From: Paraspadella gotoi | Taxonomy: Eukaryota; Animalia; Chaetognatha | Length of the DNA stretch: 64,000 bases | Direction: 5' to 3' | Assembly (NCBI GenBank): GCA_051294375.1 | Contig: CM119264.1 | Location: 9,871,275-9,935,274 of the forward strand | Part shown: piece by piece, positions 9,950 through 61,394 of the stretch | Numbering within the stretch: the first letter of the stretch is position 1 | How the letters are laid out: the number at the start of each line of letters is the position of its first letter | Translations under genes and position numbers: made by a program | The notes under the pieces: model-generated | Database searches by the model: none | Seen by the model: the letters and a program-made list of their open reading frames with translations, nothing else | What the model was told of the DNA's origin: nothing

Positions 9950-12900
9950 AGGAAGTTGCGCACACCTGAGTGATGTGTCTTGGGCCCACGGAGGAATCCC
10001 GCTCTTGTAGGCGGGTAACCAATATGGTAAGAGTGTCGGATTTTTGAATGGATATCACGAATTCTAAAACTGAAGGTCAGGATCGTAGATCGTCAATCGT
10101 TTTTTCAGCAGAAGTTAACCACGATCTTCGACATTCTTTTGAAACGAAAAGCTCAAAGAACTTTTCCAGGCGGAGCCAAATCCAATTGGCTCAGAGGGGG
10201 AAATCACACCCATCCGTAAGGGCGTGTGTTAGCATCCAACAGGATCATAAAACGGACTTACCTCTGATATGGCGCAAAAACAGGACGAGACCGATTGGTC
10301 CTATAAGGGTTATATCCGCGCCCAGTGACTGGATTGCGTCACTGAGGGTCGGAGCCCCCCAAAGCAACACGTGAGATGCCCCATTGCCCAATGGGATCAC
10401 AGGGGGCAACCCGGCTGTTTGCCATATCTCGTCTCTTATCTTTTATTTGCTACAACTCGTAGGCAGCGTACGACCTGTTTGTCCTTCCCTTGATCTGGGC
10501 AATTAGACCACTTATTGTCTTAACTTCCGGCGTGTAAGGCAACTCAATTCTGTTTCGATTATTATGGATCACGAAAGGAGTAAGCATGTACTAGTGCAGT
10601 CACGTGGATAACATTACAAGACTTGTGTAATCGTGCGCGTTTTCACCAATTGCACAAGAATTTAATAACTGAAGAATTTCATGGACGATACTGAGAATTT
10701 GCCGAGTTCCATTTTATATTAAAAACTGGCAAGAGTAGTCCTGTAAATCGCCTTTATTTTGGTACTTGTGTTAATACAATATACGGTGAAGTCATTGACC
10801 ATATAGAAATACGGTCGGCGATCAGAAAAAAATGTGGTATTTATCTTCGGTAGTTATTACTTGATTAGTTCTCTAAGTCAATTTATTGTTTACCACAAAT
10901 ACTAAGTAATACTTAATAAGAGCCTTGTCTGTGCTCAAGTGTAGCTCAGGTTATCAGTCGGGAAATGGCATGCATGAAAAACTTGAATTCTTTAACTTGT
11001 ATTCCTGGTTTTCCTCTTTTTCTCTCTTTTCGTCATGTTCTTGGTTCTTTCTCAATCCTTATTAGTCGATCTGGTTATTTTTATTTTGTACGTCTTTAGG
11101 TAGTTTCGAGCGCTGTAACTGTACTTGAGACATAAGATTGGACGCTCTTCGCCTCGTTCTGATTTCATTCATGCATAATTCGACTCAAGAGATTTAGAGA
11201 TTTCAAGAAGATTCAATTTTTTTTTCGAACGTTTAATTTATAAGGGGAAGGGCCGGCCCGCCCTGGAAAACGCGATGACTAATCCGAGTATATTCTGGCT
11301 ACAGAAATCAGCGGTCAGTCATGCCCTGTTATGAATGTTTATGAATAGATTTCCCCCGCCCCCGAGATAGTAATTATAGGTATACTTATCCCAGCGTCGG
11401 AAACCCGTTTTTTTTTCACGAACAGATGACTCAATTCTACAATTAATAGACCAAATAAAAAATAACAAATATTAGTAAAAGATGAAAAATAAGTACAAAT
11501 AAGCTATAAGGGTCAAAGCTTTATCACGCATAAAGTTGCAAATTTAGAGCACTCACTTGAAATATATTGAGGGAGAAAAGATGTGGGGACTGTGGACAAT
11601 GACATGACATAACAGATGACTTTGAACATGAAATTACAGGAGAATCATTATTGAAATTGGTACAACCAATATATAATTGTATAGTTCTCATTGATCGTAA
11701 AAGTTTTAATAAAAATAAGCTATCTTGCCCGACCTTAGAATATAGACAGGGGCTTTGGTGGTTTAAAGGCCCGACTTCATACACTGCTTACATTGATAAT
11801 TGAACAGAATCATTAACAGCAGGAGAATGCCCTGACAAGGCTATTTCAGAAATCAAGCTCTCTGCACACGCTCTCAGCACAAACTGCTCATCAACTCCTT
11901 CACATCGCTCACAAACAGTCTCGTTGATATCACGTTGTTCCCCAGCATGTACTTGGGTTATATTATATCAGCATATGATCAAGTTTAATAATGATACGGC
12001 CATAATTTTTGATATAATATTTCAAAGAATGTTTAATTGGTATGAAATATATTATAATTCAACAAACAATTCACAGGGTTTGGGCAGACATGATGAAAAA
12101 AGGTTTATATAATGGAGGGCATGAATACAGAGAATAGAGGTTACTTGAGATGATAAAGATTGAGAGATGAGATTTCAGGTGGTAAGCGGTCTTGAATATA
12201 TATCATCGAGAGGAATTCACAATTCAAGAAAGAAAAGAGAAACGAAAGGGCTAAAGCAGGATAAATCAGACCAATCGGAGATAAGATGCCGACACGGAGA
12301 TACCAAACCGGGAATAAATCTCACCATCATCGCTCATTGGGATCGAATAACCAGTGGCGCACAGGGCCTATGGTAGGAATTATATGATACTGATCTAGCA
12401 AAACAATGGAACGTTGTCTGTCATGCTAGGCCGGAATGATAATCCTCGCTTTGGAGAATTGGGGGTAACATAATATGGCTCACGTGGTCAACAAAATGTT
12501 TATGATATCAGCTGGTGAGCGAGTCGTTAATTTTTCTATTCCTGGGGGATTGGATTTTTTCTCCTTTTTGATTATATTTGCATTTTCCGAGAGAATTTCA
12601 ATATCGTCGAAACGAAAGCGATCGGTTTAATAAATTTTTCATCCTGGTAAGAAAAAAAATACAAGAAAAAATACTTCTATAAAAATAAAAAACGCTCAAG
12701 ATAAAATTCTTTACTTTTTTTGGTAAGAGGACATTGTCTTGTATTACTCGTTAAGGCCGTCAGTTTCAAATTAGGAATAATGAATCTTTTTTTTTCCCAA
12801 ACCTACCTCATAGACCTTTGTACCTCGTTTCTCAGTGGTGGGAAATTCACTTGAAAAGACAATATTTAAGTAGAAATCCATCAATCGAATGCGAAGAATA

Positions 12901-15900
12901 TACAATTTTTTTTTTTGGATTTCTAACTATAAATATAATATGTAACAAACCATAATTGTTTAGACGCTTGCCGCGTTTAAGAGAACCATCAATTGCTTGA
13001 GAGAGCTTTCAAAGAGTAAATAATTCTGGTTTTGGAAAGATTGTATATAAAGTATGGGGGTTTCAGGAGGTTCGACCCCTTTGCAATATATTTTGCCTTT
13101 CATCAAAAGTGCACAGAAGTGATAAATCTACTGAATTCCATAATTAGATCTAATTATTTTTTATTTCTCCTTAATTACCATATTATTATATTCCTACTCC
13201 AGTAGTTCTTATCTCAATAATCTTATATTTCTTATACTTAAGATCATATACAAAAAATAAAACTCTTTTACCTAACATATTCCTAATAGGTAGGGGTAGC
13301 GCAACATCAAGGGGGAAAAGAGGCAGAAGCACCAAAAAAATATTATCACAGGGCGAGTACATGCTAACAAAAAATTTACTTAAGTGTATAAAAAAAATAA
13401 ATGTAGATATGAAAAAAAAGACTTTCTTTCGTTGTTGTTATTTGGCGTTTATTGAGACTAAAGACCGAAATCTCTTTATACAATTCAACTTTTTAAGGTG
13501 CATACAAGTTTCGGCTTTCATTCAAGCCTCTCATCAGTTGAATGAAACCAAAACACTTGTATGCACATGTTAAAATAAAAATCGTTGATGTTAAAAGATT
13601 TCGTCTTTAATCTCAAATTAAAAAATTTAAAATTTAAACCAGAAATATTTTTAATAATAACTATAATTGAGTGTCATATATAAATTTAAGCAAAACTTTA
13701 TTTTAATTGGTTTGTAAAAAATAAAAAAAATTCCTTGAAAATTTAATGTGCTTTTAAATTTTTTTACTAGTATCAGATTGACCATAATTTTCTAAATCGT
13801 ATTGACCTTCTCCCCTCCTAAAAGAGAGTTTATTCTGGGTCTGTAGCACCCACAAGAAATGGGTCCTTTTTGGGAGAAAAACGACCTAATTCCTGCTACT
13901 TTATTTTTCTAAACTAATTTAGTTTTAATATCTAATGATTAACTCATAATCTTTTATCAAATTACCCTTTACTGAATAATTCGCTTTTAAAAGCCTAATC
14001 TGACTGTGCATTAGAGATTTACGTTAATCTAAAAAACTAAAACACCATATTGATTATACATGTTAAACCCTCACGATTAAACGCTTTAATAAACTAATGA
14101 GCGAGAAACAACATTAATTGCCATAAACCAAGTTAGATTACGCAAGAAAGAAAGACTCCCATAGACTAAATCCCAGAATACACAAGATAAATGGGTTCGA
14201 CGAAGATAACAACCAATTTCTTGTAACTGTGATACCCTTTAATTTTATGGGTTTTGTTAATAGTTTATTATAACTAATTTAAACCTCTAATCGGGGAGGC
14301 AGGAAATGGAGGCGCTTTCGAAAAATAGTTAAAAAACTTAATCTCTGTATTTTTTTGGGTAACACAACCTCAGACCACCCTTAGTAATTTTTATTCCTTG
14401 GAATAAAATGGCAACAATCAAGCTATATTCTCAACATGCGTTCTTAATTGGCAATTAGGACTTAGTAAACGGATGTTTACACCACCGCTCAATTACTTAA
14501 CGCGGAATCTCTTTATTTAAGAAGGATAGGTTGGTTGGCTTTTATGCGTCCTTATTGGATGCACTTCGCCGTCTCCTCGGATCTACTCTGCTTGGAAGAT
14601 TCATTTTTCCAAATATAAAATCATGTTATCCTACCTAATTTCTTCGGAAATTGGGATGTTGCGATGGTCAAATGATCGCATTGCATCTAGTTGGGTTTGG
14701 GAAATGTTGCTTTTGATGATCAGCATTTATAACGATTGAAGGTACTGCCACTATGATTAATTGGTCAACTGGATTAGTCGTTTCATAGTCCATTAAAGTC
14801 AGCAAAACAAATGTGCTTGTTCATTTTTTGAATAATGAATGAATGAATGATGAATGATGATGTTAATGAATGAAATGAAAATTGTTTATGTATATTGTAA
14901 CAAATTTTTGAATTTTGCTCGTAGTAAAAAAATATTTCTTAAATGAGTAGTATATGGTTTATCATTAGCATTAATAGTGTATCTTCAAACTTTTTAGCGT
15001 CTAAAACAAATATTTTTCTAATCATAATCTTTTGTAACATTCAATAATAAAAATGGTCTTTTCCAAGTATGTATACTTTTCCGCACTTTTAAAAAAAAAT
15101 TATATTTCAAAAAACATTTTTCCCCCCCATTTTCCGCCCGCTTTCTTCCCAACGTCTTAATCTTTTCGTATACCGCACATTGACATTTTATGACATGATG
15201 CCCTCAATTATTATAAATATATGTATCCTCATTAATGAAATTTATGAACAAATGCATATCTCATTTTTTTAATTTTATGGCCTGGCATCCCTCAATCATT
15301 TAAATTGATGACATTGCATATTTGGATTTTAAAGTAATTCTAATAGAATTTCCACGGTGAATATTGCCCAACAGCAAATTTTCTTCTCAAAAATCTTAAA
15401 TTTGCTTCACGTTTTTTCTCGAGTCCATGGCCCGCAACTTTTGGCTACAAACGTCCCGTCATCAATTCTTACTTTTGGACGAACGATTTGGGGGACGAAA
15501 ACTCTGGTGTTTGCAACCGAAGATCCGTTATGGTTCTTTTGCCAAAAAAACCTGACTTCGAAAAAAATAATAATTGGGGTTGGATTTTGGCGGAATTAGC
15601 GGGGATATGGTTTTCATTCAATAATCACTGGTACTAAATTGCCAGTGCGCTCCTTTTTAATCAAAAAGCAACGAAGGAGAGGAGCTGCTAGATTGGTTCA
15701 ATCTTCTGCTCCTGAGTCAAGGAGGAACAATGAAAAATTTTTGTTTCGGGGGGCGGGCTAAAGGCGGGCGACCTTGTTGCTGGATTTAGAATATTTGGAA
15801 ACTAAAATTAAACTCTAGTGGACAATGATCCTCTAAAGTCCGATAAAAAAAGTTTTATTTCTCAGGGAAATCACATTATGTCATTATCTCAAATTCTTGT

Positions 15901-18487
15901 GCACAGGTGATGATAGGCGTCTTAACACCTCCGAGCATTGCTCTGTTGAGAGTACAATACTTCTAGCCCTGTCCCAAAGTCTGGGGCAAGAATATCGGCT
16001 ACTTTTAATTGAATGAATAATTAATGAATGATGATTTTTTATTTGTTTGCTGGTACTTCAATTAATATGATATAAGGGTCCCTTAATATGTCGAGGTCGC
16101 GAAATTCTATTTATTTAAATGATTAGCCAATCTGTTAAATTTAAAAAGCTGATACATCTCGTTCTTTGGTTTTACCCTCTTTTTAATTTATTTTCCCTTT
16201 TTACCATCACAATTTCTCTATACTTAATTGAATATTTTGTGTTACACCGCACCAATTATGGGAAGTTTATCATTCATTTAATTAAGAAGGCTATCTTTGG
16301 CCCCTGACTTTTTGACCAGCTTTGGTAGTTTAAGGTCTCCCATCAACTCCCCTTTACAACTTCCCACATCAAAGACTCTCCACGCTCTCTCACTCTGCAG
16401 TCCACTAACTCAATTCACTCGCCAGAGGATCTGGTCTTAACTATCAAATGACGGTTGTATTGGTGTGTGCTTGGGTCATAATTCAGCGAGTAATCAAACT
16501 TATAATTTTCTATTCTCATTTTCTACATTTGTTTGGCTAGATAGTGGCCATTTGGATGCCCCGGCAATTTCAAATGGAACATTAATTAAATCTTCACGGG
16601 GGTGGTATAATCTCTCACAATGTTTTTCTCCTTTCAAAAATGTTTTGCCAAACAATTATGGTAGGTTTACCCCTTGTGCAATGCAATGCGTCCGGCTTTG
16701 ACTGTTGTTCCGTTCTGATATCTTTCTTTTCTTATAAGATTATTTAATATAATATGCTAGCCTAAATAAAGTTTTGCTCCTATAGAGATTCCACTTATGG
16801 TGCCCTATTCTGTTTTATTCAACTTGTCTTCTTTTAAGGGTTTTTACAAAACATAAGTTGATAAATGAATATTTGTAATATTTTTTTCTCGGTGATACGC
16901 ATCGGCGAGTTATATACCTAAAAACAGCAATCAATCAATCACCGGGGGATTAATTACGTCGAGAAAAAATGACCTAAACTTTCTACAAACTAGATCTTAG
17001 CGCCGTGGTCACTTTATATTAGATTCCTATTTATCTTTCTTTTTTTTCTTTTGGTTGTCGCTATTTATTTCTGACTGTGTCGGAATCTTGTGTAGATATT
17101 GAATTCCTAATCTGTTCCACAAGTAGCACTGCCAAATCTTTCATTATTACCCGAATAACCGACGTTTTTTTTGGTGGTAAAAAAAATGTACGCGATTTAA
17201 TCTCCTTTGATCCTAGTTATTTTTGTTGTCGGATACGATTTTTTTAGCGTGTTCTTTACCCGAAATTCGAATTTTGTATTGGAGAAAATACTCCTCACAG
17301 ATTCCTTTAGCATAGCGAATGTAGGGATTAACAATTAAATATTCATCTGAAATCACTAAAATTGTTATAGGGGGGTGGAAATGATAAATTTTTTAAAAAT
17401 GATGTAAAAGGAATATATATGAGCAATAAATTCACTTAAAATCTCTTTTAGGACATTTTGGGATAAAAATACTTTATAATACAGAAATTACGTTGTGAGA
17501 AAATTAAACCCAGGCATCCAACCTCTTCGGGAAATTATCTCCTAATTCCCAAAGATAGCGATAACGGCGATCCAACATAGTCACGGGCGTTCTTCGGGTT
17601 TGTAACACGATTTTACTGGGGCTGATTAGATACATCTCTTAGTATTCTTGTTACTCTGCACTATTAATTTTTGATTGTAAAAAAAAGTTCAGTGAAGGAA
17701 TTCTTATTGGGGTTTAGATTTCTCTTCTTTAACCGATAATCTCTTAATGTTCCTTTATGACTTAATCATTATATTTGTTACGTTTCTCTTTTCATTTGCT
17801 TTCATTCAAAAATTTTATATATTTTCTACCGTTATTACTATCTCCGCGTCTCACATTGGTCATGAAAATTATCCTTAATTTCGCATCTAAATGTATATTC
17901 CAGTTTACTCCTTTTTTGGCTTAATTATGAACCTTTTTTTTACCGACTCCAAGTAAAGGCTATTAAAGACGAAATGGATGCTTTTATTTCTAAGTAAAAC
18001 TTCCAACTGTATGAATCTCATTGTTCTCTACCTTTTTTCAATTTTTTAAGCTTAATATCCAAGTATTCTTCTTTAGTGTAACGATGATAGTAATCTGGTT
18101 CTATTTAATACTGGGACAATTTATATTCGTGAAAGAACTGCACAGATCTCACAATGGGCATTTCCCTACGTTTTTTTAATTTTCGTATACTGGGGGCATA
18201 GGTTCTTTTCTTTCATCATTCCCATTACAGTATATATTTTTATAAATATATATTTTTTCTGGAACAAAATAATTACGGTACATCTCAAGTAGTTAGAAGC
18301 CAATTCAACTGCGTTAACACAATCGTTTTCAAGAGTGTGCCGAACCCTTTCATTATTTAATTTTTCTCTCACATTCTCCATCCAATCTTTCCCTTTTTGT
18401 TTTACGACACGAATGGCGACTTACTTCTCTTGTGTCCTTTCTATTCTTGTTTATCTCTCAAGCTCTCATAAAATAATCGGACATTCT
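9950..18487 (+). other. Insertion-riddled duplicate of ~21250-27750 (3' LTR, intergenic DNA, MITE and most of the XK gene); probably raw long-read gap-fill rather than a pseudogene
   Basis: Collinear landmarks: 9964 ACCTGAGTGATG = 21261; twister core ~10290-10370; ATGGCAACAATCAAG at 14408 = 24677; TCAAGAGTGTGCCGAACCC at ~18329 = ~27682. About 6.5 kb is expanded to about 8.5 kb, mainly by single-base insertions affecting exons and introns alike, and it ends at an N-gap. Confidence 0.85.
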
Positions 18488-20243: not shown

Positions 20244-20839
20244 AAAAAGTTTTTTGAAGATATAATAATGGTCTTGAGCTGATGGTTTTACTCATTGAGC
20301 CACCGACTGAAGGTGACGTGCTCCTTAATGGGGTGAACTTATTGCAATGCCTACAACCATGAGATAAAAAAGAATTTTAAGCGGCACCTATTTTCTTAAT
20401 ATCTTAACATATTTTTAGTTAAATCACTAAATCGAGAAACGTAATCTAAACTGAATGTTTTCATTTTCTTCCTCTTCCACATCCCCTTCCTCGATTGTTT
20501 TCATCCTCGTCATTCTTCAAGTATTTTTTTTTTCCGCGTGAAAAGAGAAAAAAGTTGGTAAATGAAGATTTTCCTCATCCGCAAGCGACGATGAGAACGA
20601 CGACGACGACGCCACCTCGTGGGAAAAAAAAAGATAATTTGCGAGGAGCGTAAATCTCGCGTCTTCTTTCGGCGCGCCTTCGTGACGTCATAAAAACGCG
20701 TCATTGTTACGAGACTGGCGCTCGAGGGTTGGGCGAACTCTTGAGTTGGGCTGGCGACGTTACAAGAGCATTGGCGGGCGAGATTTTGCGAAAGCTCGAG
20801 AGATTAAAAGAGATGAAGATGTCCGAAATATTATGCTCG

Positions 20840-21095
20840 TGTGGCGGTATATTCACACCGCCTCACGTCCACCCACCTTTCAGCCAAATCTCATTGGCTC
20901 AGAGGGGGAACACACCATCCCAGGCGTAGTGTTCCATCCACAGTCCTAATGACTTCCCTCTGCGTTGGCAAAGCGAGACCGTCCTAGGGTAACCGCGCCA
21001 GTGACTGGAGGCGTCACTGAGGGTCGGAAGCCCCCAAAGCCAACAGTGAGATGCCCATCCCAATGGGCATCACAGGCAACCCGGCTGTTGCCATA
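20840..21095 (+). repeat. 5' LTR (256 bp), highly structured
   Basis: Matches 21289-21543 with roughly eight small differences by eye. Successive stems are GCGGT/ACCGC, GCCAA/TTGGC, CAGAGGG/CCCTCTG enclosing GGAACAC/GTGTTCC and AGTC/GACT, the twister domain, GATGCCC/GGGCATC and GGCAAC/GTTGCC. Confidence 0.9.
20964..21044 (+). ncRNA. Twister ribozyme candidate, type P5 (copy 1); predicted cleavage U20990|A20991
   Basis: Elements in order: P5 GUUGGC/GCCAAC; P2 GCG/CGC; L1 GACCG; short P1 UCCUAGGG; UAA cleavage motif; GC; P3 CAGUGAC/GUCACUG; A; P4 GGG/CCC; L4 UCGGAAGC. Pseudoknot T1 pairs L4 CGG with L1 CCG, and T2 pairs GC with the L4-terminal GC. Order and conserved nucleotides follow the twister consensus. 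Deviations are a very short P1 and a C-A mismatch at the top of P2. Confidence 0.8.
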
Positions 21096-21097
21096 AG

Positions 21098-21110
21098 TGG
21101 TGAGCCTACT
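21098..21110 (+). other. Primer-binding-site-like motif TGGTGAGCCTACT
   Basis: Begins with TGG (complement of tRNA 3' CCA) two nt after the 5' LTR. It resembles Arg-type (TGGCGAGCC) and Trp-type (TGGTGACCC) PBS; the primer tRNA was not determined. Confidence 0.55.
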
Positions 21111-21131
21111 ATCGAACACGCAACCTTCTCA

Positions 21132-21191
21132 GGGTACGCTACGACAAACGCCTATGCCCCTGGGGTACGCTACGACAAACGCCTATGCCCC
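21132..21191 (+). repeat. Internal 29-bp direct repeat x2 (period 31)
   Basis: GGGTACGCTACGACAAACGCCTATGCCCC at 21132-21160 and 21163-21191. Confidence 0.95.
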
Positions 21192-21288
21192 CACAACTCG
21201 CGCTCTCTCTCTCTCCCACTATGGTAACAGTCTTGTCAGACACCTCTCAGCGCTTGAGGAACCTGAGTGATGTCTTGGCCCGGGATCC

Positions 21289-21543
21289 TGTGGCGGTATA
21301 TTCACACCGCCTCACGTCCACCATCCTTCAGCCAAATCCATTGGCTCAGAGGGGGAACACACCATCCCAGGCGTAGTGTTCCATCCACAGTCTAACGACT
21401 TCCCTCTGCGTTGGCAAAGCGAGACCGTCCTAGGGTAACCGCGCCAGTGACTGGATGCGTCACTGAGGGTCGGAAGCCCCCAAAGCCAACACGTGAGATG
21501 CCCCATCCCAATGGGCATCACAGGCAACCCGGCTGTTGCCATA
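21289..21543 (+). repeat. 3' LTR (255 bp)
   Basis: Direct repeat of 20840-21095, followed by the TSD CTCG. Confidence 0.9.
21410..21490 (+). ncRNA. Twister ribozyme candidate, type P5 (copy 2); predicted cleavage U21436|A21437
   Basis: Identical to copy 1 except one substitution in the P3 loop (TGGATGC vs TGGAGGC). Confidence 0.8.
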
Positions 21544-22576
21544 CTCGTCTCTTATCTTTTTATTTGCACCGCGCGTACACCGTCTGTCTCTTGATCTGCC
21601 CCACTTATGTCTTAACCCGGGTGATAAGGCAATCAATTCTGTTCATATTTGGTAGAAAGGTAAGATGTACTAGTGCAGTCACGTGATCACTTGAAAACGC
21701 GTTCACATGACCAGAAATTTAATACTGAAGAATTCATGACATACTGAATCACTGATTGCCGAGTCATTTTATTTAAAACTGGCAAGGTATCTGTAAATGC
21801 CTTTTTGTACTTGTGTATAATAATCGTGAAGTCATATGACCATATAGAAATACGGTCGCGCGATCAGAAAAAAAATGTGGTATTATTCGGGTTATTCTTG
21901 ATTAGTTTAGTCAATATTTTACAAATACTAAGTAATACTAATAAGATGCTTGTTGTGCATAAGTGTAGTCAGGTTATCAGTCGGGAAATGCATCCATGAA
22001 AAAACTTGAATCCTTTAACTTGTATTCCTGGTTTTCCTCTTTTTCTCTCTTTCTCGCTCATGTTCTTGGTTCTTTCTCAATCCTTGATTAGTCGATCTGT
22101 TATTTTTACGTTTTAGTTTCGCTGTACTTGAGACTAGATTGAAACGTTTCGCTCGTTCTGATTACATTCATCATAATTCGACTCAAGAGATTTAGAGATT
22201 CAGAGATTCAAGTTTTCACGTTTAATTTATAAGGAACGGGCGCCGCCTGGAACGCGATACTCCGAGTATATTCTGGCACAAAATCAGCGGCAGATCATGC
22301 CCGTTATGATTTTATGAATAATTTCCCCCCCCCGAGATATATATAGTATATATACCATTTTTCACACAATGACTCAATTCTACAATTAATAAGACCCAAA
22401 TAAAAAAATAACAAATATTAAGTAAAATGAAAATAAGTACAAATAAGTAAAGTCAAAGCTTATCACGCATAAGTTGCAAATTTAGAGATATTGATATATT
22501 GAGGAGAAGTGTGGACTGTGGACATGACATGACATAACAGAGACTTGAACATGAATTTACAGGAGATCATTATATG

Positions 22577-22775
22577 AAATTGGTACAACCAATATAAAAT
22601 TTATTCATTAATTTAATAAATAAGCTATCTTGCCCCTGAATCTAGACAGGCTTTGGTGGTTTAAGGCCTTCATCACGCTTACATGATAATGACATAGCAG
22701 GTCCCTGCAAGCTTTCAATCAAGACTCTCTCACACTCTCACACTCTCTCACTCTCTCACTCGCTCACAACAGTCT
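22577..22775 (+). repeat. Short dispersed repeat, also at 26219-26380 (direct) and ~25975-26076 (inverted, with (TGAA)n tail)
   Basis: Shared GAAATTGGTACAACCAATAT...GCTATCTTGCCCCTGA...TTTAAGG...CAAGCTTTCAATCAAGACTCTCTCAC(ACTCTCTC)n. The reverse complement GGGGCAAGATAGC occurs at ~26029-26041. Confidence 0.75.
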
Positions 22776-24260
22776 CGTTTATTCACTCCCAGAGTACTTG
22801 GGATATATTATAATATGATAATTTAATAATATAATAATTTGATATAATATTTCAAAGAATGTTTCAATTGTATGAAATATATAATAATCAAACAAATTCA
22901 GGTTTGCAGACATGATAAAAAGTTATGGGCATGAATAAGAGAATAGAGTTACTTGAGATGATAAAGATTGAAGAGATGAGATCAGGTGGTAAGCGGTCTT
23001 GATATATATCATCGCAGAGGAATCAAAATCAAGAAAGCTAAATCAGATCAGCCAATCGAGATCCGACACGAATCCACCGGAAATAAAATCTAACTCTCTC
23101 ATTGGTCGATAAACCAGTGGCACGGGCCAATGGTGGAATTTCATCTGTCTGCAAAAACTTTGTCTGTCATCCGCTTGAATTGTATAAATTGCCACGGTCC
23201 ACAAATGTTATGTATCAGCGCGCAATTCTATTCTGGATTGATCCGAGAGAATTCAATATCGTCGAAACGAAGAGCGATCAGGTTATAAAATTTTTCATCC
23301 TGGTAAAAAAAAAAATAAAAAAATACTAAAAAAAAACGCAAAAAATTTTACTTGTAAAGAAGGCCTTACTGTTAAGCCGTCAGTTTCAATTAGAATAATG
23401 AATCTTTTTTTCAAACCTCACTTCCTCGTCTCATTGAAACTTGAAAGACTATATTAAGTAAATCTCAAGCCAGAATACAATTTTTTTGATTCTACTATAA
23501 ATAATAACCAACCATAATTGTTAGACCTTCCCTTTAGCGAACCATCAATCTGAGAGGCTTTCAAAGAAAGTAAAAATTCTGTTTGGAAGATTGGTATTGT
23601 TCAGGATCCCCTTTGCAATTTGCTTTCATCAAAAGTCAAAAGTGATAACTACTTCCTATTAATATTTTTATTCCTCTTCCTATTTTTATTCCTCTCAGTA
23701 GTCTTCTCATATCTTTTCTTTCTTAGTCTTAATCTCTTTTCCAACATATTCTAATAGTAGGGGTAGCCGCACTCAATGGGGAAAGCCAAAAATTTACAGC
23801 GAGTACATGCTCAAATTTCTTTTTAAAAAAATATGTGATTAAACTTTCTTTCGTTGTGTTTGGGTTATTTGAGATTAAAGACGAAATCTTTTACATCAAC
23901 TTTTTAAGGTGCATACAAGTTTCGGCTTTCATTCAAGCCTTCATCAGTTGAATGAAAGCCGAAACTTGTATGCACATTTAAAAATAAAAATCGTTGATGT
24001 AAAAGATTTCGTCTTTAATCTCAAATAAAAAAAATTTAAAATTTAAAACCAGAAAATATTAAAATAACTATAATGAGTGTCATATATAAATTTAAGCAAA
24101 CTTTATTTAATTGTAAAAATAAAAAAAAATTCCTTGAAAATTAATGTGCTTAAATTTTACTAGTACTGATTGACCATAATTTCAAATCAGTATTGACCCT
24201 TCTCCCTCCCTAAAGAGAGTTTATTCTGGTCTGTAGCACCCAAAAGAAAATTGGGTCCTT

Positions 24261-24600
24261 TTTTGGAAAACGACCTATTCCTGCTATTTATTTTTCTAAA
24301 CTAAATTTTAGTTTTAATATCTAATGATTAATCATAATCTTTTATCAAATACCTTACTTAATCCTTAACCCTAATCTGACTGCATTAAAGATTTCCTTAA
24401 TCTAAAACCCTAACCCTAACCGTTAACCCTTAACCTAAACTAATGCCTCACATTAATCCATAACCATTATCCAGCTCCCCATCCTAATCCCTAATACCAA
24501 AGTCCAACCACATTCTTTAAACTTAACCTTTAATTTAGTTTTTTAATCTAATAACTAATTTAATCCTCAATCGAGGCAGAAATGGGGCGCTTTTCGAAAA
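24261..24600. mobile_element. MITE-like element with ~24-bp imperfect TIRs and internal degenerate (CCCTAA)n
   Basis: TTTTGGAAAACGACCTATTCCTGC (24261-24284) pairs imperfectly with GCAGAAATGGGGCGCTTTTCGAAAA (24576-24600). The interior contains AACCCTAACCCTAACCGTTAACCCTTAACCTAA (~24405-24440). Confidence 0.55.
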
Positions 24601-24676
24601 TAGTTAAAAAAACTTAATCTCTGTATTTTTTGGTAACACAACCTCAGACACCTTAGTATTTATTCCTTGATAAAAA

Positions 24677-24985
24677 ATGGCAACAATCAAGCTATATCTC
24701 AACATCGTTCTTATTGCATTAGACTTAGTAACGGATGTTTACACCACCGCTCAATTACTTAACGCGGAATCTCTTTATTTAAGAAGGATAGGTTGGTGCC
24801 TTTTATGCGTCTTATTGATGCACATCGCCGTCTCCGCCATCTACTCGCTGAAGATCATTTTCAAATATAAAAATCATTATCCTAATTTCTTCGGAAATTG
24901 GATGTGCGAGTGGTCAATGATCGCATTGCATATAGTTGGTTTGGGAAATGTTGCTTTGATGATCAGCATTTATAACGATGAAAAG
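24677..24985 (+). CDS. XK-related protein (Xkr family), exon 1
   Basis: ATG in AAAAATGG context. MATIKLYLNIVLIALDLVTDVYTT carries the XK-type TM1 DxxTD motif, followed by two more hydrophobic helices. Donor AAG|GTACGT, phase 0. Confidence 0.85.
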
Positions 24986-25527
24986 GTACGTGCCACTAAT
25001 GATTAATGTCACTGATTAGTCGTTCATGTCATTAAAGTCAGCAACAAATGGCTTGTTCATTGAATGAATGAATGAATGAATGAATGAATGAATGAATGAA
25101 TGAATGAAAATTGTTTATGTATATTGTAACAATTTTGATTTTGCTAGTAGTAAAAAATATTTCTTAAAGAGTAGTAATGGTTAATGATAATAGTGTATCT
25201 TCAACTTTTAGCGTCTAAAACAATATTTTTCTAATCATAATCTTTTGTAACATTAATAATAAAATGGTTCTTTTCAGTATGTATACTTTCGCACTTTTAA
25301 AAAAAAATTATATTTCAAAAACATTTTTCCCCCCCATTTTCCGCTTTCTTCCAACGTCTTAATCTTTCGTATACCGCACATTGAAATTTATGACATGGAA
25401 TGCCTCATTATTAATAAATATATGTATCCCTCATTAATAAATTTATGACATGGCATCTCTCATTTTTTAATTTATGGCCTGGCATCCCTCATCATTAAAT
25501 TGATGACATTGCATATTGGATTTTAAG

Positions 25528-25820
25528 TTTAATTCTATAAATTTCCACGGTGATCATTCCAAGCAAATTCTTCTCAAAAATCTTAATTTGCTTCACGTTT
25601 TTCTCGAGTCATGGCCGCAACTTTTGCTACAAACGTCCGTCATCATTCTTACTTGGACGAACGATTTGACGAAACTGTGTTTGCACGAGACCATGTTCTT
25701 CAAAAAACCTCGACTGAAAAATTGGGGTTGGATTTTGGCGGAAATTAGCGGATATGGTTTCAATATCACTGGGACTAAATGCCAGTGCGCTCCTTTTAAT
25801 AAGCACGAAGGAGCTCTGAG
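25528..25820 (+). CDS. XK-related protein, exon 2
   Basis: Acceptor TTTTAAG| is phase 0 (an alternative in-frame AG lies at 25563). Encodes LLHVFLESWPQLLLQ, the XK-family ESxPQ signature. Donor GAG|GTCAAT, phase 2. Confidence 0.8.
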
Positions 25821-26382
25821 GTCAATTGCCAGAGAGACATTAAATTTTTTTGGGGGGGGAGGAGGGGAACTTGGTGCTAATTAGATTGAAATAATTAAAT
25901 TAAAATGTCAATGTTCTAATGTCGATAAAAAAATTTTATTCTCAGGGATCACATTATGTCATTATCTTGTGAGAGTGATGAAGGCCTTAAACCTCCACAC
26001 TGTTGAGTACACAGCCTGTCCAAAGTCTGGGGCAAGATAGCATATTTATTGAATGAATGAATTAATGAATGAATGATTTTTATTTTGGTGGTACTAATTT
26101 AATATATATATGTCGAGCGAAATTTTTTTTATGATAGCCATCTGTGAAATTTAAAAGCTGATAATCGATTCTTTGTTTACTTAATTAATTTTCCTTTTAC
26201 ATACATTTCTCATCTAATGAAATTGGTACAACCAATATGGAAGTTATCCATTCATTTAATTAAGAGGCTATCTTGCCCCTGACTTTGGACAGCCTTTGGT
26301 AGTTTAAGGTCTCCATCACTCTTACAAGCTTTCAATCAAGACTCTCTCACGCTCTCTCACTCTCTCACTCTCTCACTCCCAG

Positions 26383-28189
26383 AGGATCTGTCTTCACTAT
26401 CAATGACGTTTTTGTGTGTGCTTGGTCTATCAGCGAGTATCAAACTATAATTTCTATTTCATTTTCTACATTTTGTTTGGCTAAAGCGGCAATAGATAAC
26501 CGGCATTCGAATGAACCATTATTAATTTCAGGAAATTTAATTTTCCTTTCAAATGTTTGCCAAACAATAGGTTTACTGCAATGCATCGTCGGCTTGACTG
26601 TATTTCTCTATATCTTAAGTATAAGTAGCCTAAAAGTTTCTCCTTGGATCCTTATGGCCATTCTGTTTATGCCTTTAAGGGTTTTTACAACATCTGAACT
26701 GAATATGCTTTTTCGAGGATTATATAAAAACAGCAATCATCATCCGGGGATTAATTACGGAAAACCAAACTTTCTACAAATGATCTTAGCGCCGTGGGTC
26801 ACTATATCTCTTTTTTCTTTGGTTGTCGCTATTAATTTGATCGATCTTTTAGACTTCAGCGCAATTTACCAAAAAACGAGTTTTTGGAAAATCGTACGCG
26901 ATTATTCTCCTTTGATTAGATTTGCATATAGATTTACGTCTTTCCGAAATCCATTATTGAGAAAATACTCTCGTTTTTGCACGAGTGGGATTCAATTAAA
27001 TTCTCGATCACTAAAATTGTTGGGAAAGATTTTTAAATATGAAAAGGATTGCAATAATCTTAATCCTTTTAGATTTGGATATTTAATACAGAATTATAGA
27101 ACCGGAAATTATCTCCTAATGCGACCCGATTTTGGGTTGTACACGATTTTACTGCTGATAGATACATCTCTTAGTATTCTGTACTCCACTTTATTTTTGA
27201 TTGTAAAAAAGTCAGTGAAGGAATTCTTATTGGCGTTATTTTCTATTTTAAGTTCCTTTATTATCATTTACCTCAGTCTTTATCATTTTATATTTCACGT
27301 TAACATCGCGCACATTGGCAGAAATACCATTCGCTCAAGTATTTCCAGTTACCTTTTGCTAAAAACCCCAAGTAAAGCTATTAAAGACGATGATGCTTTT
27401 TTTCTAAGCCAACTGTATGAATCTCATTGTCACCTTTTTAAATTTTTAAGCTTAATATCCAAGTATTCTTCTTTAGTAACGATGATAGTATTGGTATTTA
27501 ACGTGGGAAATTTATATTCGAATCTCAACAAATGGGCATTACGTTTTTTATTTTCTATACTGGGGGGCATAGTTTCTTTCATCATTCCCATTACAGTATA
27601 TATTTTTATATATATTTTTCTGGAACAAAATACATTACGGTACAAAGTATTAGAAAAGCCATTCAACTGCGTTACATCGTTTCAAGAGTGTGCCGAACCC
27701 CTTCTCATTAAATTAATTTCTTTTTTCTACTTAAAATTCAACTTTTTTTATATATTTGGTTTATCATTACTGCCTTTTTTCAAATTTGTTTGTACGATGA
27801 TACCTTGCAATAAACGAAGCCGTAATATCGGCCTCAGAGTCCAAGCAATTCGAATTATTTTGGGTTGTCTCATATTTACTTTTGTTTATAAATTCACGAT
27901 GCATGTCCAACGGCCAAGCGAGCAAATTGATCACCTTATATACGCGAATCTGTCCCATCCTAGACGCGATCTCTTGGCTCGGAAGGCAAGAAATTCTTTC
28001 GAAAGCGAGTTCATTTCGCCCATTTACGATTTGTTGTACCCGTTGTTTATGGAGCAGAATGTCATTTCAAACGCAACGGCTTTTGTCGATGAAATAAACG
28101 AGGTTTTCAATAGATTTATCCAAAAAGGTCCCAACCTTCTAGTACTTTTATTTTTATTTATCCCTGCTGTAGTGATCTTGAGTTATTGA
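26383..28189 (+). CDS. XK-related protein, exon 3 (long multi-TM terminal exon); spliced CDS 2409 nt = 802 aa
   Basis: Acceptor ctctcactcccAG| is phase 2 and matches the exon 2 donor. Continuous with the 591-aa ORF, which has many hydrophobic segments. Stop TGA at 28187-28189; ATTAAA at 28241. Confidence 0.85.
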
Positions 28190-42371: not shown

Positions 42372-42772
42372 GAATGGTTGGAAGGCAGATTGGATTTGAA
42401 ATGAGATCGATTGTTGGATGGCTCATTGGATTTGAAATGAGATCGATTGTTGGATGGCTGATTGGAATTAAAATGAGATCGATTGTTGGATGGCTGATTG
42501 GATTTAAAATGAGATTGATTGTTGGATGACTGATTGGATTTAAAATGAGATTGTTGGTTGGATGACTGATTGGATTTAAAATGAGATCGATTGTTGGATG
42601 GCTGATTTGATTTAAAAAGAGATCGATTGTTGGATGGCTGATTGAATTTGAAATGAGATCGATTGTTGGATGGCTGATTGGATTTGAAATGAGATCGATT
42701 GTTGGATGGCTGATTGGATTTAAAATGAAATCGATTGTTGGATGGCTGATTGAATTTGAAATGAGATCGATT
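42372..42772 (+). repeat. 36-bp minisatellite, ~11 copies
   Basis: Unit GATTGGATTT(G/A)AAATGAGATCGATTGTTGGATGGCT, in phase from 42388 to 42772, with no spacers. Confidence 0.95.
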
Positions 42773-55603: not shown

Positions 55604-58468
55604 GGAGAGGGAGAGCCAAAGTTCTTCAAGTTTTGTCCTGCTAATTTTCGTTTTTCTAGGTTTTTGACGCCCGACTTGAGGTAGGGTCGAGAGCCTTTCC
55701 CTTCCGTCTTTTCCTCCATTCCTTACCTCGTTAAAGCTGAGGTGTCTTGACGTGGCTGTGTTTTACGCCAGAGAGATTCAGAGATGGCGTTCACCTCAAA
55801 ATGAAAAACTATGACCCGATGTCGACTTCATTCTCAGTTTTGACAACGGAGCTTCCCTGGCGTGAGTATTTCCACTTGCCTCGGTTTCTGTCCCATCTCA
55901 TATTCTCTTGTACGTCACGAATCACGAACCACACTAAAAGACTTAAATCCAAGTGGATGAGCTTAAATGACGTAATAAATTCATCAATTGATATAGAACG
56001 ACGATTAAAATATACAGGTTATTTTTATTTCACAGATTGTAACGTTATAAAATGCAAAATCAATAATAAAAATCTTTTTCGTGTGACATAAAAAAATAAT
56101 CAGTTTCATCTTGTTTTTCGTTTCATTATTCAAGGTTTTTGTTTCTAACTCATTCTCAAGCTTGTCAAGGGGCGAAAAAAAGGAGCGGAAAAAAAAAGAA
56201 AAAACATTTTAAAAACCTTTTTTTTCCTCCAGTTTTTTCACCCGATCTCATAAAAAAAAAAAGATTATCTGCGAGATAACGTGGCCGTTTCAAAATCTTA
56301 AAATATAGAGAAATGTCCCAACATGTCATGACTTAATAATTATTTTATTCTTTCGCTCAGTGAAAAAGACCCTTGAACCCACTACATAGTAAAAGAGAAT
56401 GCGAGGGTAAGTTCGACAAAGCCTGATGGCGACGAGTGCCAAGGCGACGTTTTTACGCGCGACTTTGTTTTTTACGATTTTTACGGTTTTTCACGTTTTT
56501 TACGGTTTATTTTTCGATAAAGTTCGTCTCGGACAAAGACTTTGTTGGCGCTAACTAAAAATAAAATAAAAGTGAAAAAAAAAAAAGAGTTAACGCTCCT
56601 AGATTTTATCCGACATAAAATCTTAAGGGGAGAGAGGAAGGAAGCTCGCGTTTCTCAAGGAAAGAAAAAGGGGTGAAGACTTAAAAATATGATGAGGACA
56701 AAAAAAGAAAAAAGAGGTAATGAATACGAATAGAGAAAAAAGGACGATAAGAGAAAAACGAGGAAAGCAGATTCATAAAAAAAAATGAGAGAATGCATTA
56801 AAGGATGCAAAAAAATAATAATGAGTCAAAATGAAAGACAGGTTTGTTAAATCAATATTCCTTATAAGGAGGACATTAACTGTCTCAGGAGCCGAGTCTA
56901 AAAAATAAAAATGAGCCGAAGCGGCACAAAATTAGTAAACAAAAACGAAAGAAAGAAAACGCGAGTTTTTTTGGAAAAAAGAAGGAAAAAGAAAATAAAA
57001 AAGAAGAAAACGGAAAAGAAAGCGAAAAAAAAATGAAAGGGAAAAAGAAGTCGAGGAAGCGCAGGAGAAAAAAAGGGTCGAGACAAGAAAGGAATGAATA
57101 AGAAAGGAAAAAAAACTCCTGTATCATTCAGAGCGAAAGGAAACGATAGAAAAATGCAAAACAGAACATGAGTTTTTTCCCCCAACGTAACGCAGCGCGA
57201 CTCTGCCGTCATCCGTGAAAAAAAATCCTAATTTAGTATTAATCATAAATAATAAACAGTAAACAAAAGAACTTTTTTTTTTCATTTCGTTGCCAGTTAC
57301 ATATATGGTCTGTTTGAACAAAAAATAAATGAGAAAAAAAGAAGCTCTTAACCTTTACTAGAAAGAAATGTAAATAACCGGAAGCTTAGATAAAATTTTA
57401 ACTCTCCTCCTCTCTCCTTTCTCTTTTCTCTCCTCACACTTCGGAAGAAATGCCGACTTTGAACCAAATGAACCCTTAACTTTTTTCCTTCGAGATCCGA
57501 CGCTTTGAAGACGTCGTCGGCGCTCTCGTTGCTGTCGTCGTCGTCGTCGTCGTCGGTCGCTTACAAAACCTCCGGAGACCAAAAAAGATTCAAGGTCGTT
57601 AATTTCGCGCCTTCGTGGAAACAAAAGAATTGGAAAAGAAAAGAACTTTATAAAAAAAAAGAAAAGAAATCCATAAAAGACATGCCTTCAATTAAATATT
57701 AAAAAGTTAATCCGAAAGAGTGGAACCGGAAATAAAAAGAAAGAAAGAAGAAAAGTGGTGGAAATAATTCTTTAGAAAAGAAAGAAAAACAAAAAAGGAA
57801 GAAAAAATCTCGTCTACAGTTTAAAACTTTAAGAAAAGAAAACTTATTAAATAAATTAATGCATGGATGTTGTTGAAGGGAAGAACAGCGATACAATAGT
57901 AAATACAGAAGTACAATACGATAGAAATACTATCTAAGATCCTAAAAAAGATCACACTTAACCAAAGAACATTCTCAAAATCCGAATGTAAAAACGTCGG
58001 TCTGAATAAACGACGGAAAAACATCCCTGACAACCCAACGGTAAAACCAGACCATAAAAAGACATTTTCGCAGTGAAAGAAAGTAACGTCGCGCCTCTGG
58101 CACCGTCGCTTATTGCCTCAATTTTCTGCTCCTTTTCCTCCTCGGATTAGCCTCTTCTCTCTCTTTTCTTCTCTCCATTTTCTTGCTCCTTTCCTCTTTC
58201 CTAGTAAACTTAGTGTATTGAACTAAGTTCGTAGAGGTGGCTGTCTTTGACAACTAACTGTCTGAGCTGCTCCTGCGCTATCAAAACGAGAGGAATTCGA
58301 GTAAGATGGCGCGGACGAGACGATGGCGCCGGTCTGACGCTCAAGATGAGGTATCTGACGACAAAGTCGAAGCCCAGCACTTCTATCTGAAGTTGATGAG
58401 ATGAAGGTTAGAAGTCCTGGGCAAGGAATAACAAAACATTTAATACACACTCAGCAAATATATATATT

Positions 58469-60553
58469 AGACGAGAATCTCGCTTAAAAAAAAATTCAAC
58501 ATTTTTCTAATAGAGAATTCCGTTCAAATCTGACTACCCAAATTGCAAACGCGTTTGCCAGAAATTCGGTTAAAAAACACTTGTAAAAACGCATGATTCC
58601 GAGAGCGTTACATCTGAAGAGCTTGTCCTATGCATTTTATGGCATTTGATAAAGGATTTAATATCAAACAAGCCAGGGGAAATGCACTATTCATCTCCGG
58701 AGAATTTTCAAACCTCATTTTTACTATAGAAATGAAAGGGAAAGTTTACAAACTTAAAATTGCAAACGGGATTGCTATATGTTCCTGTTACATGAGCGAC
58801 TTCGAATTTCGCGATTTTGATAGCTTTGTGTCTGAAGAGCTTGTCCTATTTTTCTTTTTTCATTTTATAATGATTTTGACATAAAATGATCAGGTTTAAA
58901 TGAAATAGTCCGGTTTGAATCGCGAAATTTTTAATTAAAAAGAAATTAAAAGGAAGGTTGAGAAAAAAACTGATTTTTCATAATATCTTTTGAAGAAATA
59001 AGGATAAAGGGATGGTAATAGTACCAAAATGAAGCCNNNNNNNNNNNNNNNNNNNNNNNNNATAATCATAGGGCACATACCAATGATACAATTTTAAAAT
59101 TACTTAATGCTGAAACCCTCACTTACAGTAGGAAGCCTGCTACTAGGAAAAAGAAGCCAGCTGATTTTTTCTTATATTTTTATATCGATAGATGGGAAAT
59201 GACGGGAATATTGTAAATCTCAAGTTTCGCTTTAATCGGACCTCACATTGTGGAGAAATCTTTAGGAAAACCATCAAAAATTCCACACCCTTTTTTCAAC
59301 ATCTCGCCTTTTTAAGATTTTTGTGCCGATTCTGATCTTCCTCTTACCAAAAACTTATAATTCCGTCTGAGTAGTTAAATTTTTTTTCTTAAACGAGCGA
59401 AGGGAACTCATAACTTTCTGTTATTTTCATGATTTCCTGGTAAAAAATATAATGCAATAACATATAAGCATTGGGATATTATGAAAGTAAAATGTCTTGT
59501 GAAGCTGTGAGAGTTAAATAATTAAAAGAATTCGCCTATTTTATTATTGAAAAATGACGATTAAAGTGAATAGTTGAACGTCTTCAGGCTCAATTTCAGT
59601 AAACATCCCCTGTTCCTAACATAAAATAATGTTTACTTTTTGCTGGTGGAAAAGAAAGATAAATAGTTAGGCTGTGATGGGGTGAATAAATATTTTGTAG
59701 AATTTGTAAGCATGCTTGTAATAATCAGGAAGCAAATATTTAAGTGAAAAAAAAATATATTTTCTTTATCCAAAAAACTTTTAAAGTTTTACTATAGTAC
59801 AATTTAGCCTTTTTTCTTTCATTGAAGACCTAAAAAGATTTAATTTTCATTTATTTTTATGGGGTTCATTAGTTTTAAAATTCAATTAAAATTTGACTTA
59901 GTGACACTCACCCTGTAAAGAGGTTTCAGGCAAACAATAATTCTAATATTATGTAACTTGTATGTGCCTAATGATTATGGCTTCATTTTGGTACTATTGC
60001 CATCCCTGGTAATCTTTGTTCCTTCAAGAGATATCAGAAAAAATCAGTTTTTTCCTCAACCTTCCTTTAATTTCTTATTAAATAAAAATTTCACTGTTGT
60101 CAAACCAGACAATGGACTTTACAATGTTGGTTTACTATGGAAGAGTTTTGGTCCAAATAATGAAAAGAAAAATTTGGGCAAGCTCTTGAGAACAAGAGGC
60201 TTTTTCAAATCTTCAAAATTCGAAGTAATATTTATAATGTTTAACATCCAAGCCCGTTTAGAATTTTGAAAGCAAAATTTCCCTTTCATTTCTATAGTAA
60301 AAACAAGGTTTGAAAATTCTCGGAGATGACTAGTGCATTTCCCCTGGCTTGTTTGGATATTAAATCCCTTTATCAAATGCCATAAGACGAATTTGGCTAG
60401 CTCTAGATAATAACGCTATCGGAATCGTGTGTTTTTACAATTGTTTTTTAACCCGAATTTCTGGCAATATCGTTTGCAATTTGGGTAGTCAGATTTTAAC
60501 GGAAATCTCTATTAGAAAATGTTGAATTTTTTTTATAAGCAGAGATTCTCGTC
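58469..60553. repeat. Diverged inverted repeat pair A (58469-~59090) / A' (~59955-60553)
   Basis: AGACGAGAATCT...AAATCTGACTACCCAAATTGCAAACG matches CGTTTGCAATTTGGGTAGTCAGATTT...AGATTCTCGTCT in reverse complement. Central parts differ by substitutions. Confidence 0.8.
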
Positions 60554-61340: not shown

Positions 61341-61394
61341 TATAAGCGGCCTTCCTTATATATAAAGTTTAAGAATCCCATCTTACTTGTTTAT

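What the first reader, a model, noticed from the sequence alone, without database searches (positions are those of the whole stretch)
20964..21044. Type-P5 twister with compensatory T1 pseudoknot (L4 CGG : L1 CCG)
Well-studied twisters have an L4 such as UCCCAAGC or UCCUAAGC pairing with a G-rich L1. Here both partners are changed together (L4 UCGGAAGC, L1 GACCG) and three Watson-Crick pairs are kept. UAA, GC, the A before P4 and AAGC are all preserved. Such covariation is unlikely by chance and supports a real twister fold. The C-A mismatch at the top of P2 could lower activity.
Basis: partly seen in the sequence, partly recalled or inferred. Interest (0 to 1): 0.8.

Follow-up and report, generated by a model that had tools for sequence, protein, structure and literature searches.

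The report
Twister ribozyme in miniature LTR retroelement
A short, protein-free, many-copy repeat in what is likely an animal genome, built like a miniature LTR retrotransposon, carries a predicted self-cutting twister RNA in both terminal repeats, which would cut its transcript into a unit-length, possibly circular RNA, a life cycle known from plant elements that use a different ribozyme.

Summary
The motif is real: every conserved twister base and both pseudoknots lie in type-P5 order. A descriptor with free T1 letters finds only it and a second copy, and nothing in 600 window shuffles. The same T1 letters occur in an unrelated type-P1 twister, so the T1 swap is a natural variant, not the novelty. 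This is the layout of plant LTR retrozymes, but with a twister and probably in an animal. As a monomer it folds poorly; its P1 is self-complementary, so the two repeats may act as a dimer. Against: Rfam thresholds are not met, there is no polypurine tract, and cleavage, expression and circles are untested. A Penelope/Naiad passenger is the main rival. The scan has no look-alike sequence; it has unchecked notes on P5 twisters in Naiad pseudo-LTRs.

The parts
20840..21543 (+). Whole element, 704 bp, 57.5% G+C, no long ORF
   Evidence: edges confirmed by depth steps and loose ends
20836..20839 (+). Left copy of the 4-bp target-site duplication (CTCG)
   Evidence: exact for 4 bp only; chance about 0.005 from flank composition
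21544..21547 (+). Right copy of the 4-bp target-site duplication (CTCG)
20840..21095 (+). Left terminal repeat (256 bp), begins TG, ends TA, imperfect terminal inverted repeat
   Evidence: 96% identical to the right repeat
21289..21543 (+). Right terminal repeat (255 bp)
21096..21288 (+). Non-coding middle (193 bp) with a 31-bp tandem pair at 21132-21191; no polypurine tract at its end
21098..21109 (+). Primer-binding-site-like motif starting TGG two bases after the left repeat; closest to a published tRNA-Trp site
   Evidence: family variants compared by eye with the list (11 of 13 and 12 of 13 letters)
20964..21044 (+). Type-P5 twister-like ribozyme with P3, copy 1; predicted cut between 20990 and 20991
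   Evidence: features as defined in PMC5408937
21410..21490 (+). Type-P5 twister-like ribozyme, copy 2; predicted cut between 21436 and 21437; differs from copy 1 at one P3-loop base
20982..20989 (+). Self-complementary P1 segment: a 2-bp hairpin alone, an 8-bp helix between two copies
   Evidence: sequence
20991..21436 (+). Predicted 446-nt unit released between the two cuts (candidate circular RNA)
   Evidence: inference from the two cut sites; circular fold -155.0 kcal/mol against -137.1 +/- 6.6 in 60 shuffles, z -2.7
20895..20939 (+). Box A-like (20895) and box B-like (20931, one mismatch) motifs upstream of the ribozyme; possible RNA polymerase III promoter
   Evidence: pattern chosen after seeing the sequence; no tRNA match

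Best explanation
The motif has the bases and pairings of a type-P5 twister and sits in both terminal repeats of a 704-bp, protein-free, many-copy element that is likely a miniature non-autonomous LTR retrotransposon in a probably animal host, where it is predicted to cut the transcript in each repeat and would release a 446-nt unit that likely circularises, as in plant retrozymes. Shown: the motif, the two repeats, the 4-bp duplication, fixed ends at many loci, and conservation of the core among copies. Inferred: a transcript runs through both repeats; the short self-complementary P1 segments of the two copies pair into one 8-bp helix so that the two twisters work as a swapped dimer; both U|A sites are cut; a host ligase closes the unit; a tRNA (likely Trp) primes copying by the reverse transcriptase of an autonomous Gypsy-type element, whose integrase leaves the 4-bp duplication. 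Odds by step: cleaves at some level 0.8; true LTR element 0.7; circular intermediate, given both, 0.6-0.7; dimer needed 0.4.
For: Twister: with the definition. Among copies, the only substitutions reaching 5% in the 81-nt span are at 21006 and 21010, both in the 7-nt P3 loop; the P1 'loop' shows none (chance 0.006 for that loop, 0.047 for any unpaired linker; variants are inherited, so weak). Element: exact 4-bp duplication; TG start and inverted termini. In 4 runs from 3 studies (one may be the window's own source) summed contig depth jumps at 20840 (X3 139 in the flank to over 1 million; X5 13.5 to 143,000; not a copy number), and contigs leave the repeat into unrelated flanks at fixed places: before 20840 in 18, 92, 77 and 25 contigs, after 21095/21096 in 8 (X1), 89+103 (X3) and 74 (X5), consensus agreement 0.42-0.54. 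Shorter middles still rejoin at 20840 (tables 5 and 5c). The left-flank contig of X3 stops at 20840, exactly where an allele without the element would branch off. An extra C after 21104 is read at 41-72% of depth, giving 11 of 13 letters of the tRNA-Trp site printed in the Helenus supplement; 2 contigs of X9 give 12 of 13. Precedent: plant retrozymes have ribozymes in both LTRs, 4-bp duplications, a primer site and circular RNAs. Dimer: the nested swapped-dimer fold is 8.8 kcal/mol better than two monomers; minimal hammerheads with palindromic stem III cleave as dimers.
Against: No Rfam threshold met; Rfam Twister-P5 has an 8-bp P1 and no P3. ViennaRNA gives P1, P2 and P4 probabilities below 0.06 in six contexts and prefers a rival pairing by 10 kcal/mol, whereas the natural twister in L065 folds correctly (0.65-0.99); even the dimer is 11.4 kcal/mol above the free minimum (pseudoknots are not scored). 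No compensatory change inside the family. No polypurine tract and a TA, not CA, 3' end. The primer match is imperfect and was not tested against the host's tRNAs. Only 1 target duplication was read; 588 loose-end rows were not shown, so variable 5' ends may be hidden. No autonomous partner seen. The host is placed only by gene-poor, microsatellite-rich DNA and a weak XK-related Pfam match (E 4e-4, below cut-off).
Confidence: 0.5

Rival explanations
1. The element is a non-autonomous passenger of a Penelope-like retroelement (Naiad type): the two repeats are pseudo-LTRs from a partial tandem insertion of a 449-bp unit, making this a non-LTR retrozyme that uses a twister instead of a hammerhead.
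For: No polypurine tract and a TA end. [quoted passage not shown] Animal retrozymes derive from pseudo-LTRs. Two unchecked scan notes report P5 twisters with an abnormal P1 in Naiad pseudo-LTRs.
Against: Both ends are fixed over many flanks, whereas these elements are usually 5'-truncated. Exact 4-bp duplication in non-microsatellite DNA, inverted termini, and a TGG motif two bases after the repeat that resembles a tRNA-Trp site. Animal non-LTR retrozymes are described as under 50% G+C, without primer site and with larger duplications; this element is 57.5% G+C.
Confidence: 0.2
2. It is a TRIM whose twister only makes the RNA's 3' end: transcription starts inside the left repeat, the right-hand twister cuts at 21436, and the linear RNA keeps a terminal redundancy for ordinary LTR strand transfer; no circle is needed.
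For: The element has no AATAAA/ATTAAA signal and no TTTT on the + strand (lack of TTTT is also seen in 3681 of 5000 shuffles, so weak). Cassandra TRIMs start and stop inside their LTRs. The rival fold could keep one copy off.
Against: The two copies are identical in all paired parts, so nothing favours cutting only one; the dimer geometry activates both sites together.
Confidence: 0.13
3. The twister is an inactive or barely active relic, captured once (for example from another retroelement) and amplified passively with the repeat.
For: Weak P1, mismatches in P2 and at the base of P4, and a preferred rival fold; a young family keeps any sequence; no in-family compensation.
Against: All catalytic and pseudoknot bases are intact; frequent variants avoid the core; such stem defects were tolerated in tested twisters and P1 is dispensable.
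Confidence: 0.14
4. The twister likeness is chance in a G+C-rich, hairpin-rich repeat.
For: Rfam scores are low; the descriptor was written after seeing the motif.
Against: 0 matches in 600 window shuffles and 40,000 element shuffles; the same T1 in an independent twister.
Confidence: 0.03

Closest known systems
Plant LTR retrozymes (Cervera, Urbina and de la Pena 2016, PMC4918200; review PMC7761336)
   Same: Non-coding element with a self-cleaving ribozyme in each of two direct repeats, 4-bp target duplication, primer site after the left repeat, G+C above 55%, structured unit between the cuts.
   Different: Twister type P5 instead of type III hammerhead; smaller (256-bp repeats, 446-nt unit against 300-400 bp and about 700 nt); Trp-like instead of Met primer site; no polypurine tract; host probably an animal; circles not shown.
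Type-P5 twister ribozyme (Rfam RF02684, clan CL00120)
   Same: Order of strands, U|AA, GA + T1 strand, GC, L4 with AAGC, both pseudoknots.
   Different: P1 is 2 bp plus a self-complementary loop instead of about 8 bp; a 7-bp P3 is present; T1 reads CGG:CCG; mismatches in P2 and P4; does not score against the model.
Helenus TRIMs (tRNA-derived promoter in the LTR; Kojima 2024, PMC10886601)
   Same: Size, two LTRs, 4-bp duplication as in animal families, TGG primer site (tRNA-Trp is among those used), box A/B-like motifs in the repeat.
   Different: No recognisable tRNA body, box B has a mismatch, no polypurine tract; no ribozyme is described for Helenus, and four exact twister-loop words were absent from its supplement (line breaks could hide a match).
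Animal non-LTR retrozymes and Penelope-like hammerheads (PMC7229834; bioRxiv 10.64898/2026.07.22.740005; PMC6765202)
   Same: Short non-coding ribozyme repeats in animals; minimal ribozymes with a palindromic short stem that work as dimers.
   Different: They use type I hammerheads in tandem arrays and lack LTRs, primer site and 4-bp duplications.
Twister T-variants at the 5' end of the Schistosoma Perere-3 (RTE) non-LTR retrotransposon (PMC8501958)
   Same: A twister processing a retroelement RNA in an animal.
   Different: One ribozyme at the 5' end of a coding LINE, P1 partly supplied by the target site; no LTRs.

Membership tests
Twister ribozyme class | Conserved L1 bases (U|A-A and general-base G, A) and L4 bases (U...AAGC), invariant G-C closing P4 | tested here: met
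   against the definition in PMC5408937
Twister ribozyme class | Pseudoknots T1 (3 Watson-Crick pairs plus A.A) and T2 (2 G-C pairs) | tested here: met
   complementarity in the sequence; same T1 letters in L065; formation not probed
Twister ribozyme class | Stems P1, P2 and P4 form | tested here: inconclusive
   pairings possible but predicted probability below 0.06 as a monomer; better as a dimer; pseudoknots not scored
Twister ribozyme class | Site-specific self-cleavage | not testable with these tools
   needs an in vitro assay
Rfam Twister-P5 (RF02684) | Score of at least 37.6 bits; long P1 hairpin, no P3 | tested here: not met
   no match up to E 10; model anatomy seen
LTR retrozyme / TRIM | Two long direct repeats around a short non-coding middle, under 1 kb | tested here: met
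LTR retrozyme / TRIM | 4-bp target-site duplication and fixed ends | tested here: met
   one locus read directly; fixed ends in 4 runs; duplications at other loci not read
LTR retrozyme / TRIM | Primer-binding site complementary to a host tRNA | tested here: inconclusive
   11-12 of 13 letters of a published tRNA-Trp site; host tRNAs not available
LTR retrozyme / TRIM | Polypurine tract before the right repeat | tested here: not met
   the 20 bases before 21289 are not purine-rich
LTR retrozyme (as defined in plants) | Type III hammerhead in each LTR | tested here: not met
   no hammerhead match; a twister takes its place
LTR retrozyme (as defined in plants) | Accumulation of the unit as circular RNA | not testable with these tools
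   only assembled contigs were available
Helenus (TRIMp3) | tRNA-derived sequence with boxes A and B in the LTR | tested here: inconclusive
   box-like motifs at 20895 and 20931 (post hoc pattern, 1 of 20,000 shuffles); no tRNA call by ARAGORN or Rfam
Penelope-like (Naiad) passenger | Variable 5' truncation and pseudo-LTRs from partial tandems | tested here: not met
   the best-supported 5' loose end is the same base in all 4 runs; 588 rows not shown
Penelope-like (Naiad) passenger | 3' end shared with an autonomous GIY-YIG/RT element | not testable with these tools
   no genome held

The most novel reading that the evidence does not exclude
An animal LTR retrozyme built on a twister: a high-copy, recently mobile miniature LTR element whose two repeats each hold half of an obligate dimeric type-P5 twister, so that only a complete two-repeat transcript cuts itself into a 446-nt circle, while solo repeats stay silent in host RNAs; copying is primed by tRNA-Trp and needs no polypurine tract.
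Probability: 0.25. Interest if true: 0.88.

Novelty: new variant of a known kind. Interest (0 to 1): 0.72.

Why it matters
The papers I could see split retrozymes into plant LTR elements with type III hammerheads and animal non-LTR elements with type I hammerheads, and tie twisters to retroelements only through a non-LTR family. A twister in the LTRs of a probably animal TRIM would break both rules and show that the ribozyme-and-circle strategy arose again with another ribozyme class. It would give a eukaryotic type-P5 twister a testable job; the large activity survey covered type P1 only. A natural dimer-dependent twister would parallel dimeric hammerheads and explain how many solo repeats can be tolerated inside host transcripts. 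The element is small and easy to assay. Searches behind 'not found in print'; the library lacks most subscription journals, the original twister paper was not held, and repeat databases such as Repbase or Dfam could not be searched.

Tried and rejected
Rfam on the whole window: 0 matches at gathering score. No whole genome held. Third copy at 10174-10426 rejected as independent evidence: it continues into the same right flank and belongs to an indel-dominated duplicate of 21330-26483, likely an assembly artefact. An alternative type-P1 reading with the strand after P4 (Rfam, 24.1 bits) was rejected because it gives no T1. Sequencing runs: no RNA holder listed, which says nothing on expression; X9 is RNA only by a guess. 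Host placement: three protein searches empty, Atlas no usable hit, 148 ORFs against Pfam gave nothing above cut-off. The supplement of PMC11662667 could not be read, so whether a CGG:CCG twister has been assayed is unknown to me. A paper search for the primer-site word gave 2 unrelated papers. Scan look-ups by sequence and place were empty.

Full report
OBSERVATION. Against the twister definition in PMC5408937 (passages seen) they hold the L1 bases U|AA and GA, the GC of T2, the L4 loop with its closing G-C, T1 as three Watson-Crick pairs plus an A opposite A, and the strand order of type P5, with a 6-bp P5 and a 7-bp P3. A descriptor that leaves the T1 letters free but demands their pairing matched this motif and a twin at 21410-21490, and nothing in 600 shuffles of the window, 40,000 shuffles of the element or 35 viral loci carrying the bare words; it was written after seeing the motif. 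Rfam does not recognise it: nothing at gathering score, partial twister-P1 matches of 24.1 and 15.2 bits, no Twister-P5 match. Six true Twister-P5 matches among 19 viral loci show why: the model has an 8-bp P1 and no P3.

THE T1 SWAP AND THE MISMATCHES. The swap is a known kind of variation, not the news: 1 of 10 viral loci with these T1 letters in type-P1 order, L065, is a clean twister (48.3 bits, E 4.1e-9). The C.A at the top of P2 is the family's normal state: no other letter at 20976 reached 5% in 4 runs. The A before P4 faces a C, a second mismatch. In a test of about 2,600 natural type-P1 twisters, defects in P1, P2 and most of P4 were tolerated and pseudoknot defects were not (PMC11662667, sections 32 and 35 and passages seen; supplement unreadable). 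The real weakness is folding: in six contexts P5 and P3 form (0.54-0.99) but P1, P2 and P4 stay below 0.06, and a rival pairing of the P2 5' strand with the L4 CGG wins by 10 kcal/mol, while L065 folds correctly by the same method. Pseudoknots are not scored in these folds.

WHAT CARRIES IT. The two copies lie in direct repeats at 20840-21095 and 21289-21543 (96% identical) around a 193-bp middle. The 704-bp unit is flanked by CTCG on both sides, an exact match for 4 bases only (chance about 0.005), begins TG, ends TA, has imperfect inverted termini, 57.5% G+C and no long ORF. Contigs of 4 public runs from 3 studies of the same coded organism were laid on the left flank, left repeat and middle (one study may be the window's source). 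Summed depth rises by about four orders of magnitude at 20840 in X3 and X5 (not a copy number). Contigs leave the repeat into unrelated sequence at fixed places: before 20840 in 18, 92, 77 and 25 contigs, after 21095/21096 in 8, 89+103 and 74 (none listed for X9; 588 rows not shown). Depth over the middle is lower than over the repeat in all four runs, as two repeats per element and solo repeats would give. The left-flank contig of X3 ends at 20840, the last base that a filled and an empty allele would share, whereas that of X5 runs 27 bases into the repeat: a hint of insertion polymorphism, from one junction only. Two bases after the left repeat a TGG motif begins; an extra C is read there at 41-72% of depth, and that form matches 11 of 13 letters of the tRNA-Trp primer site printed in the Helenus supplement, while 2 contigs of X9 with a different middle match 12 of 13 (compared by eye). 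No polypurine tract precedes the right repeat. Inside the ribozyme span the only substitutions at 5% or more are at 21006 and 21010, both in the P3 loop, plus a one-C loss in a C run in X1. Upstream of the ribozyme lie box A-like and box B-like motifs (post hoc), but no tRNA is called and an inverted CCAAT-like pair overlaps them, so the promoter type is open. A third copy at 10174-10426 is part of a noisy duplicate and was set aside; single-base indels between the two repeats may also be assembly errors. The host is a eukaryote, probably an animal: gene-poor, microsatellite-rich DNA with a weak XK-related match (that this family is mainly animal is my own knowledge); protein searches did not place it.

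HOW IT MOST LIKELY WORKS. Inferred: a transcript through both repeats is cut after 20990 and 21436, releasing a 446-nt unit whose circular fold is more stable than shuffles (z -2.7, 60 shuffles). Such a unit has no terminal redundancy, so it can be copied back into a two-repeat element only after circularisation, which is the route described for plant retrozymes (PMC4918200 and PMC7761336, passages). The 8 bases forming P1 are self-complementary: alone they give 2 pairs and a strained loop (+2.7 kcal/mol), between two copies an 8-bp helix (-11.0), the length seen in the Rfam model. In the full transcript the swapped dimer is fully nested and scores -253.9 against -245.1 for two monomers and -265.3 for the free minimum. 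Minimal hammerheads of Penelope-like elements and amphibian retrozymes use this device (PMC6765202 and PMC7229834, passages). Given that P1 needs two pairs anyway, two more pairs arise by chance about 1 time in 16, so this is a hypothesis, helped a little by the lack of variants in that 'loop'. Priming by tRNA-Trp and integration by a Gypsy-type partner follow from the primer site, the 4-bp duplication and what is reported for animal TRIMs (PMC10886601, parts 1-4 of 6 and supplement parts 1 and 10 of 11 seen).

RIVALS. A Naiad-type Penelope passenger (0.2) is the serious one. I took it from two unchecked scan notes on P5 twisters in Naiad pseudo-LTRs and checked the Naiad paper (PMC8557442, abstract and passages): no hammerheads, high copy numbers, (TA)n bias, frequent 5' truncation. 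The missing polypurine tract and A/T-rich flanks fit it; the fixed 5' end, exact 4-bp duplication, inverted termini and primer-like site do not. If the notes are right, a Naiad could also be the donor of this twister. Other rivals: a twister that only makes the 3' end of a linear RNA (0.13), a dead relic (0.14), chance (0.03).

COMPARISON AND NOVELTY. It works like a plant LTR retrozyme but fails two of that family's features (hammerhead, polypurine tract) and its circles are untested. It is a twister by core features but not a member of RF02684 by score. It resembles Helenus TRIMs in build but a tRNA origin is unproven. A 2026 preprint still places LTR retrozymes mainly in plants and non-LTR ones in animals (part 1 of 5 seen); twisters are tied to a non-LTR family in Schistosoma (PMC8501958, passages) and occur in viroid-like circles, one of them type P5 (bioRxiv 2022.07.19.500677, passages). 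Eight searches found no twister in an LTR element, within a library that lacks most subscription papers. Verdict: new variant of a known kind; interest 0.72; boldest reading (obligate dimeric twister making a circular RNA from an animal TRIM) probability 0.25, interest 0.88.

Noticed in passing
window 10174-16539 against 21330-26483: A 5-6 kb duplicate at 74-82% identity in which gaps far outnumber mismatches; looks like an uncorrected long-read segment left in the assembly.
   Followed up: partly
window 24674-25884: Pieces of an intron-containing membrane-protein gene with a weak XK-related Pfam match (E 4e-4, below cut-off); no homologues found.
   Followed up: partly
window 26303-28189 (+): A 628-codon open frame, very hydrophobic, with no Pfam, homologue or Atlas match; a partial noisy copy lies at 17946-18367.
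   Followed up: partly
L065 297-365 (-): A well-formed type-P1 twister with the CGG:CCG T1 variant in a 53-kb viral contig; it scores below Rfam's gathering threshold.
   Followed up: yes
L193 130-229 and L197 110-209: Back-to-back twisters about 52 nt apart in phage contigs, with only 6 nt between the L1 strand of one and the cut site of the next.
   Followed up: no
run X9, loose ends after 21106 and record 32: Contigs with the same repeat end and a closer tRNA-Trp-like site but a different, A/T-rich middle, and a 1,998-nt contig holding the 3' part of the repeat; candidates for a sister family or an autonomous partner.
   Followed up: no
window 20881-20898: A hairpin made of two inverted CCAAT-like boxes overlapping the box A-like motif; could point to a polymerase II promoter instead.
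   Followed up: no
window 23865-24028: A 164-bp near-perfect fold-back, MITE-like.
   Followed up: no
window 58468-61356: A long inverted repeat pair of about 1.4 kb per arm at 80-83% identity.
   Followed up: no
window 42377-42772: An 11-copy, 36-bp tandem array at 92% matches.
   Followed up: no
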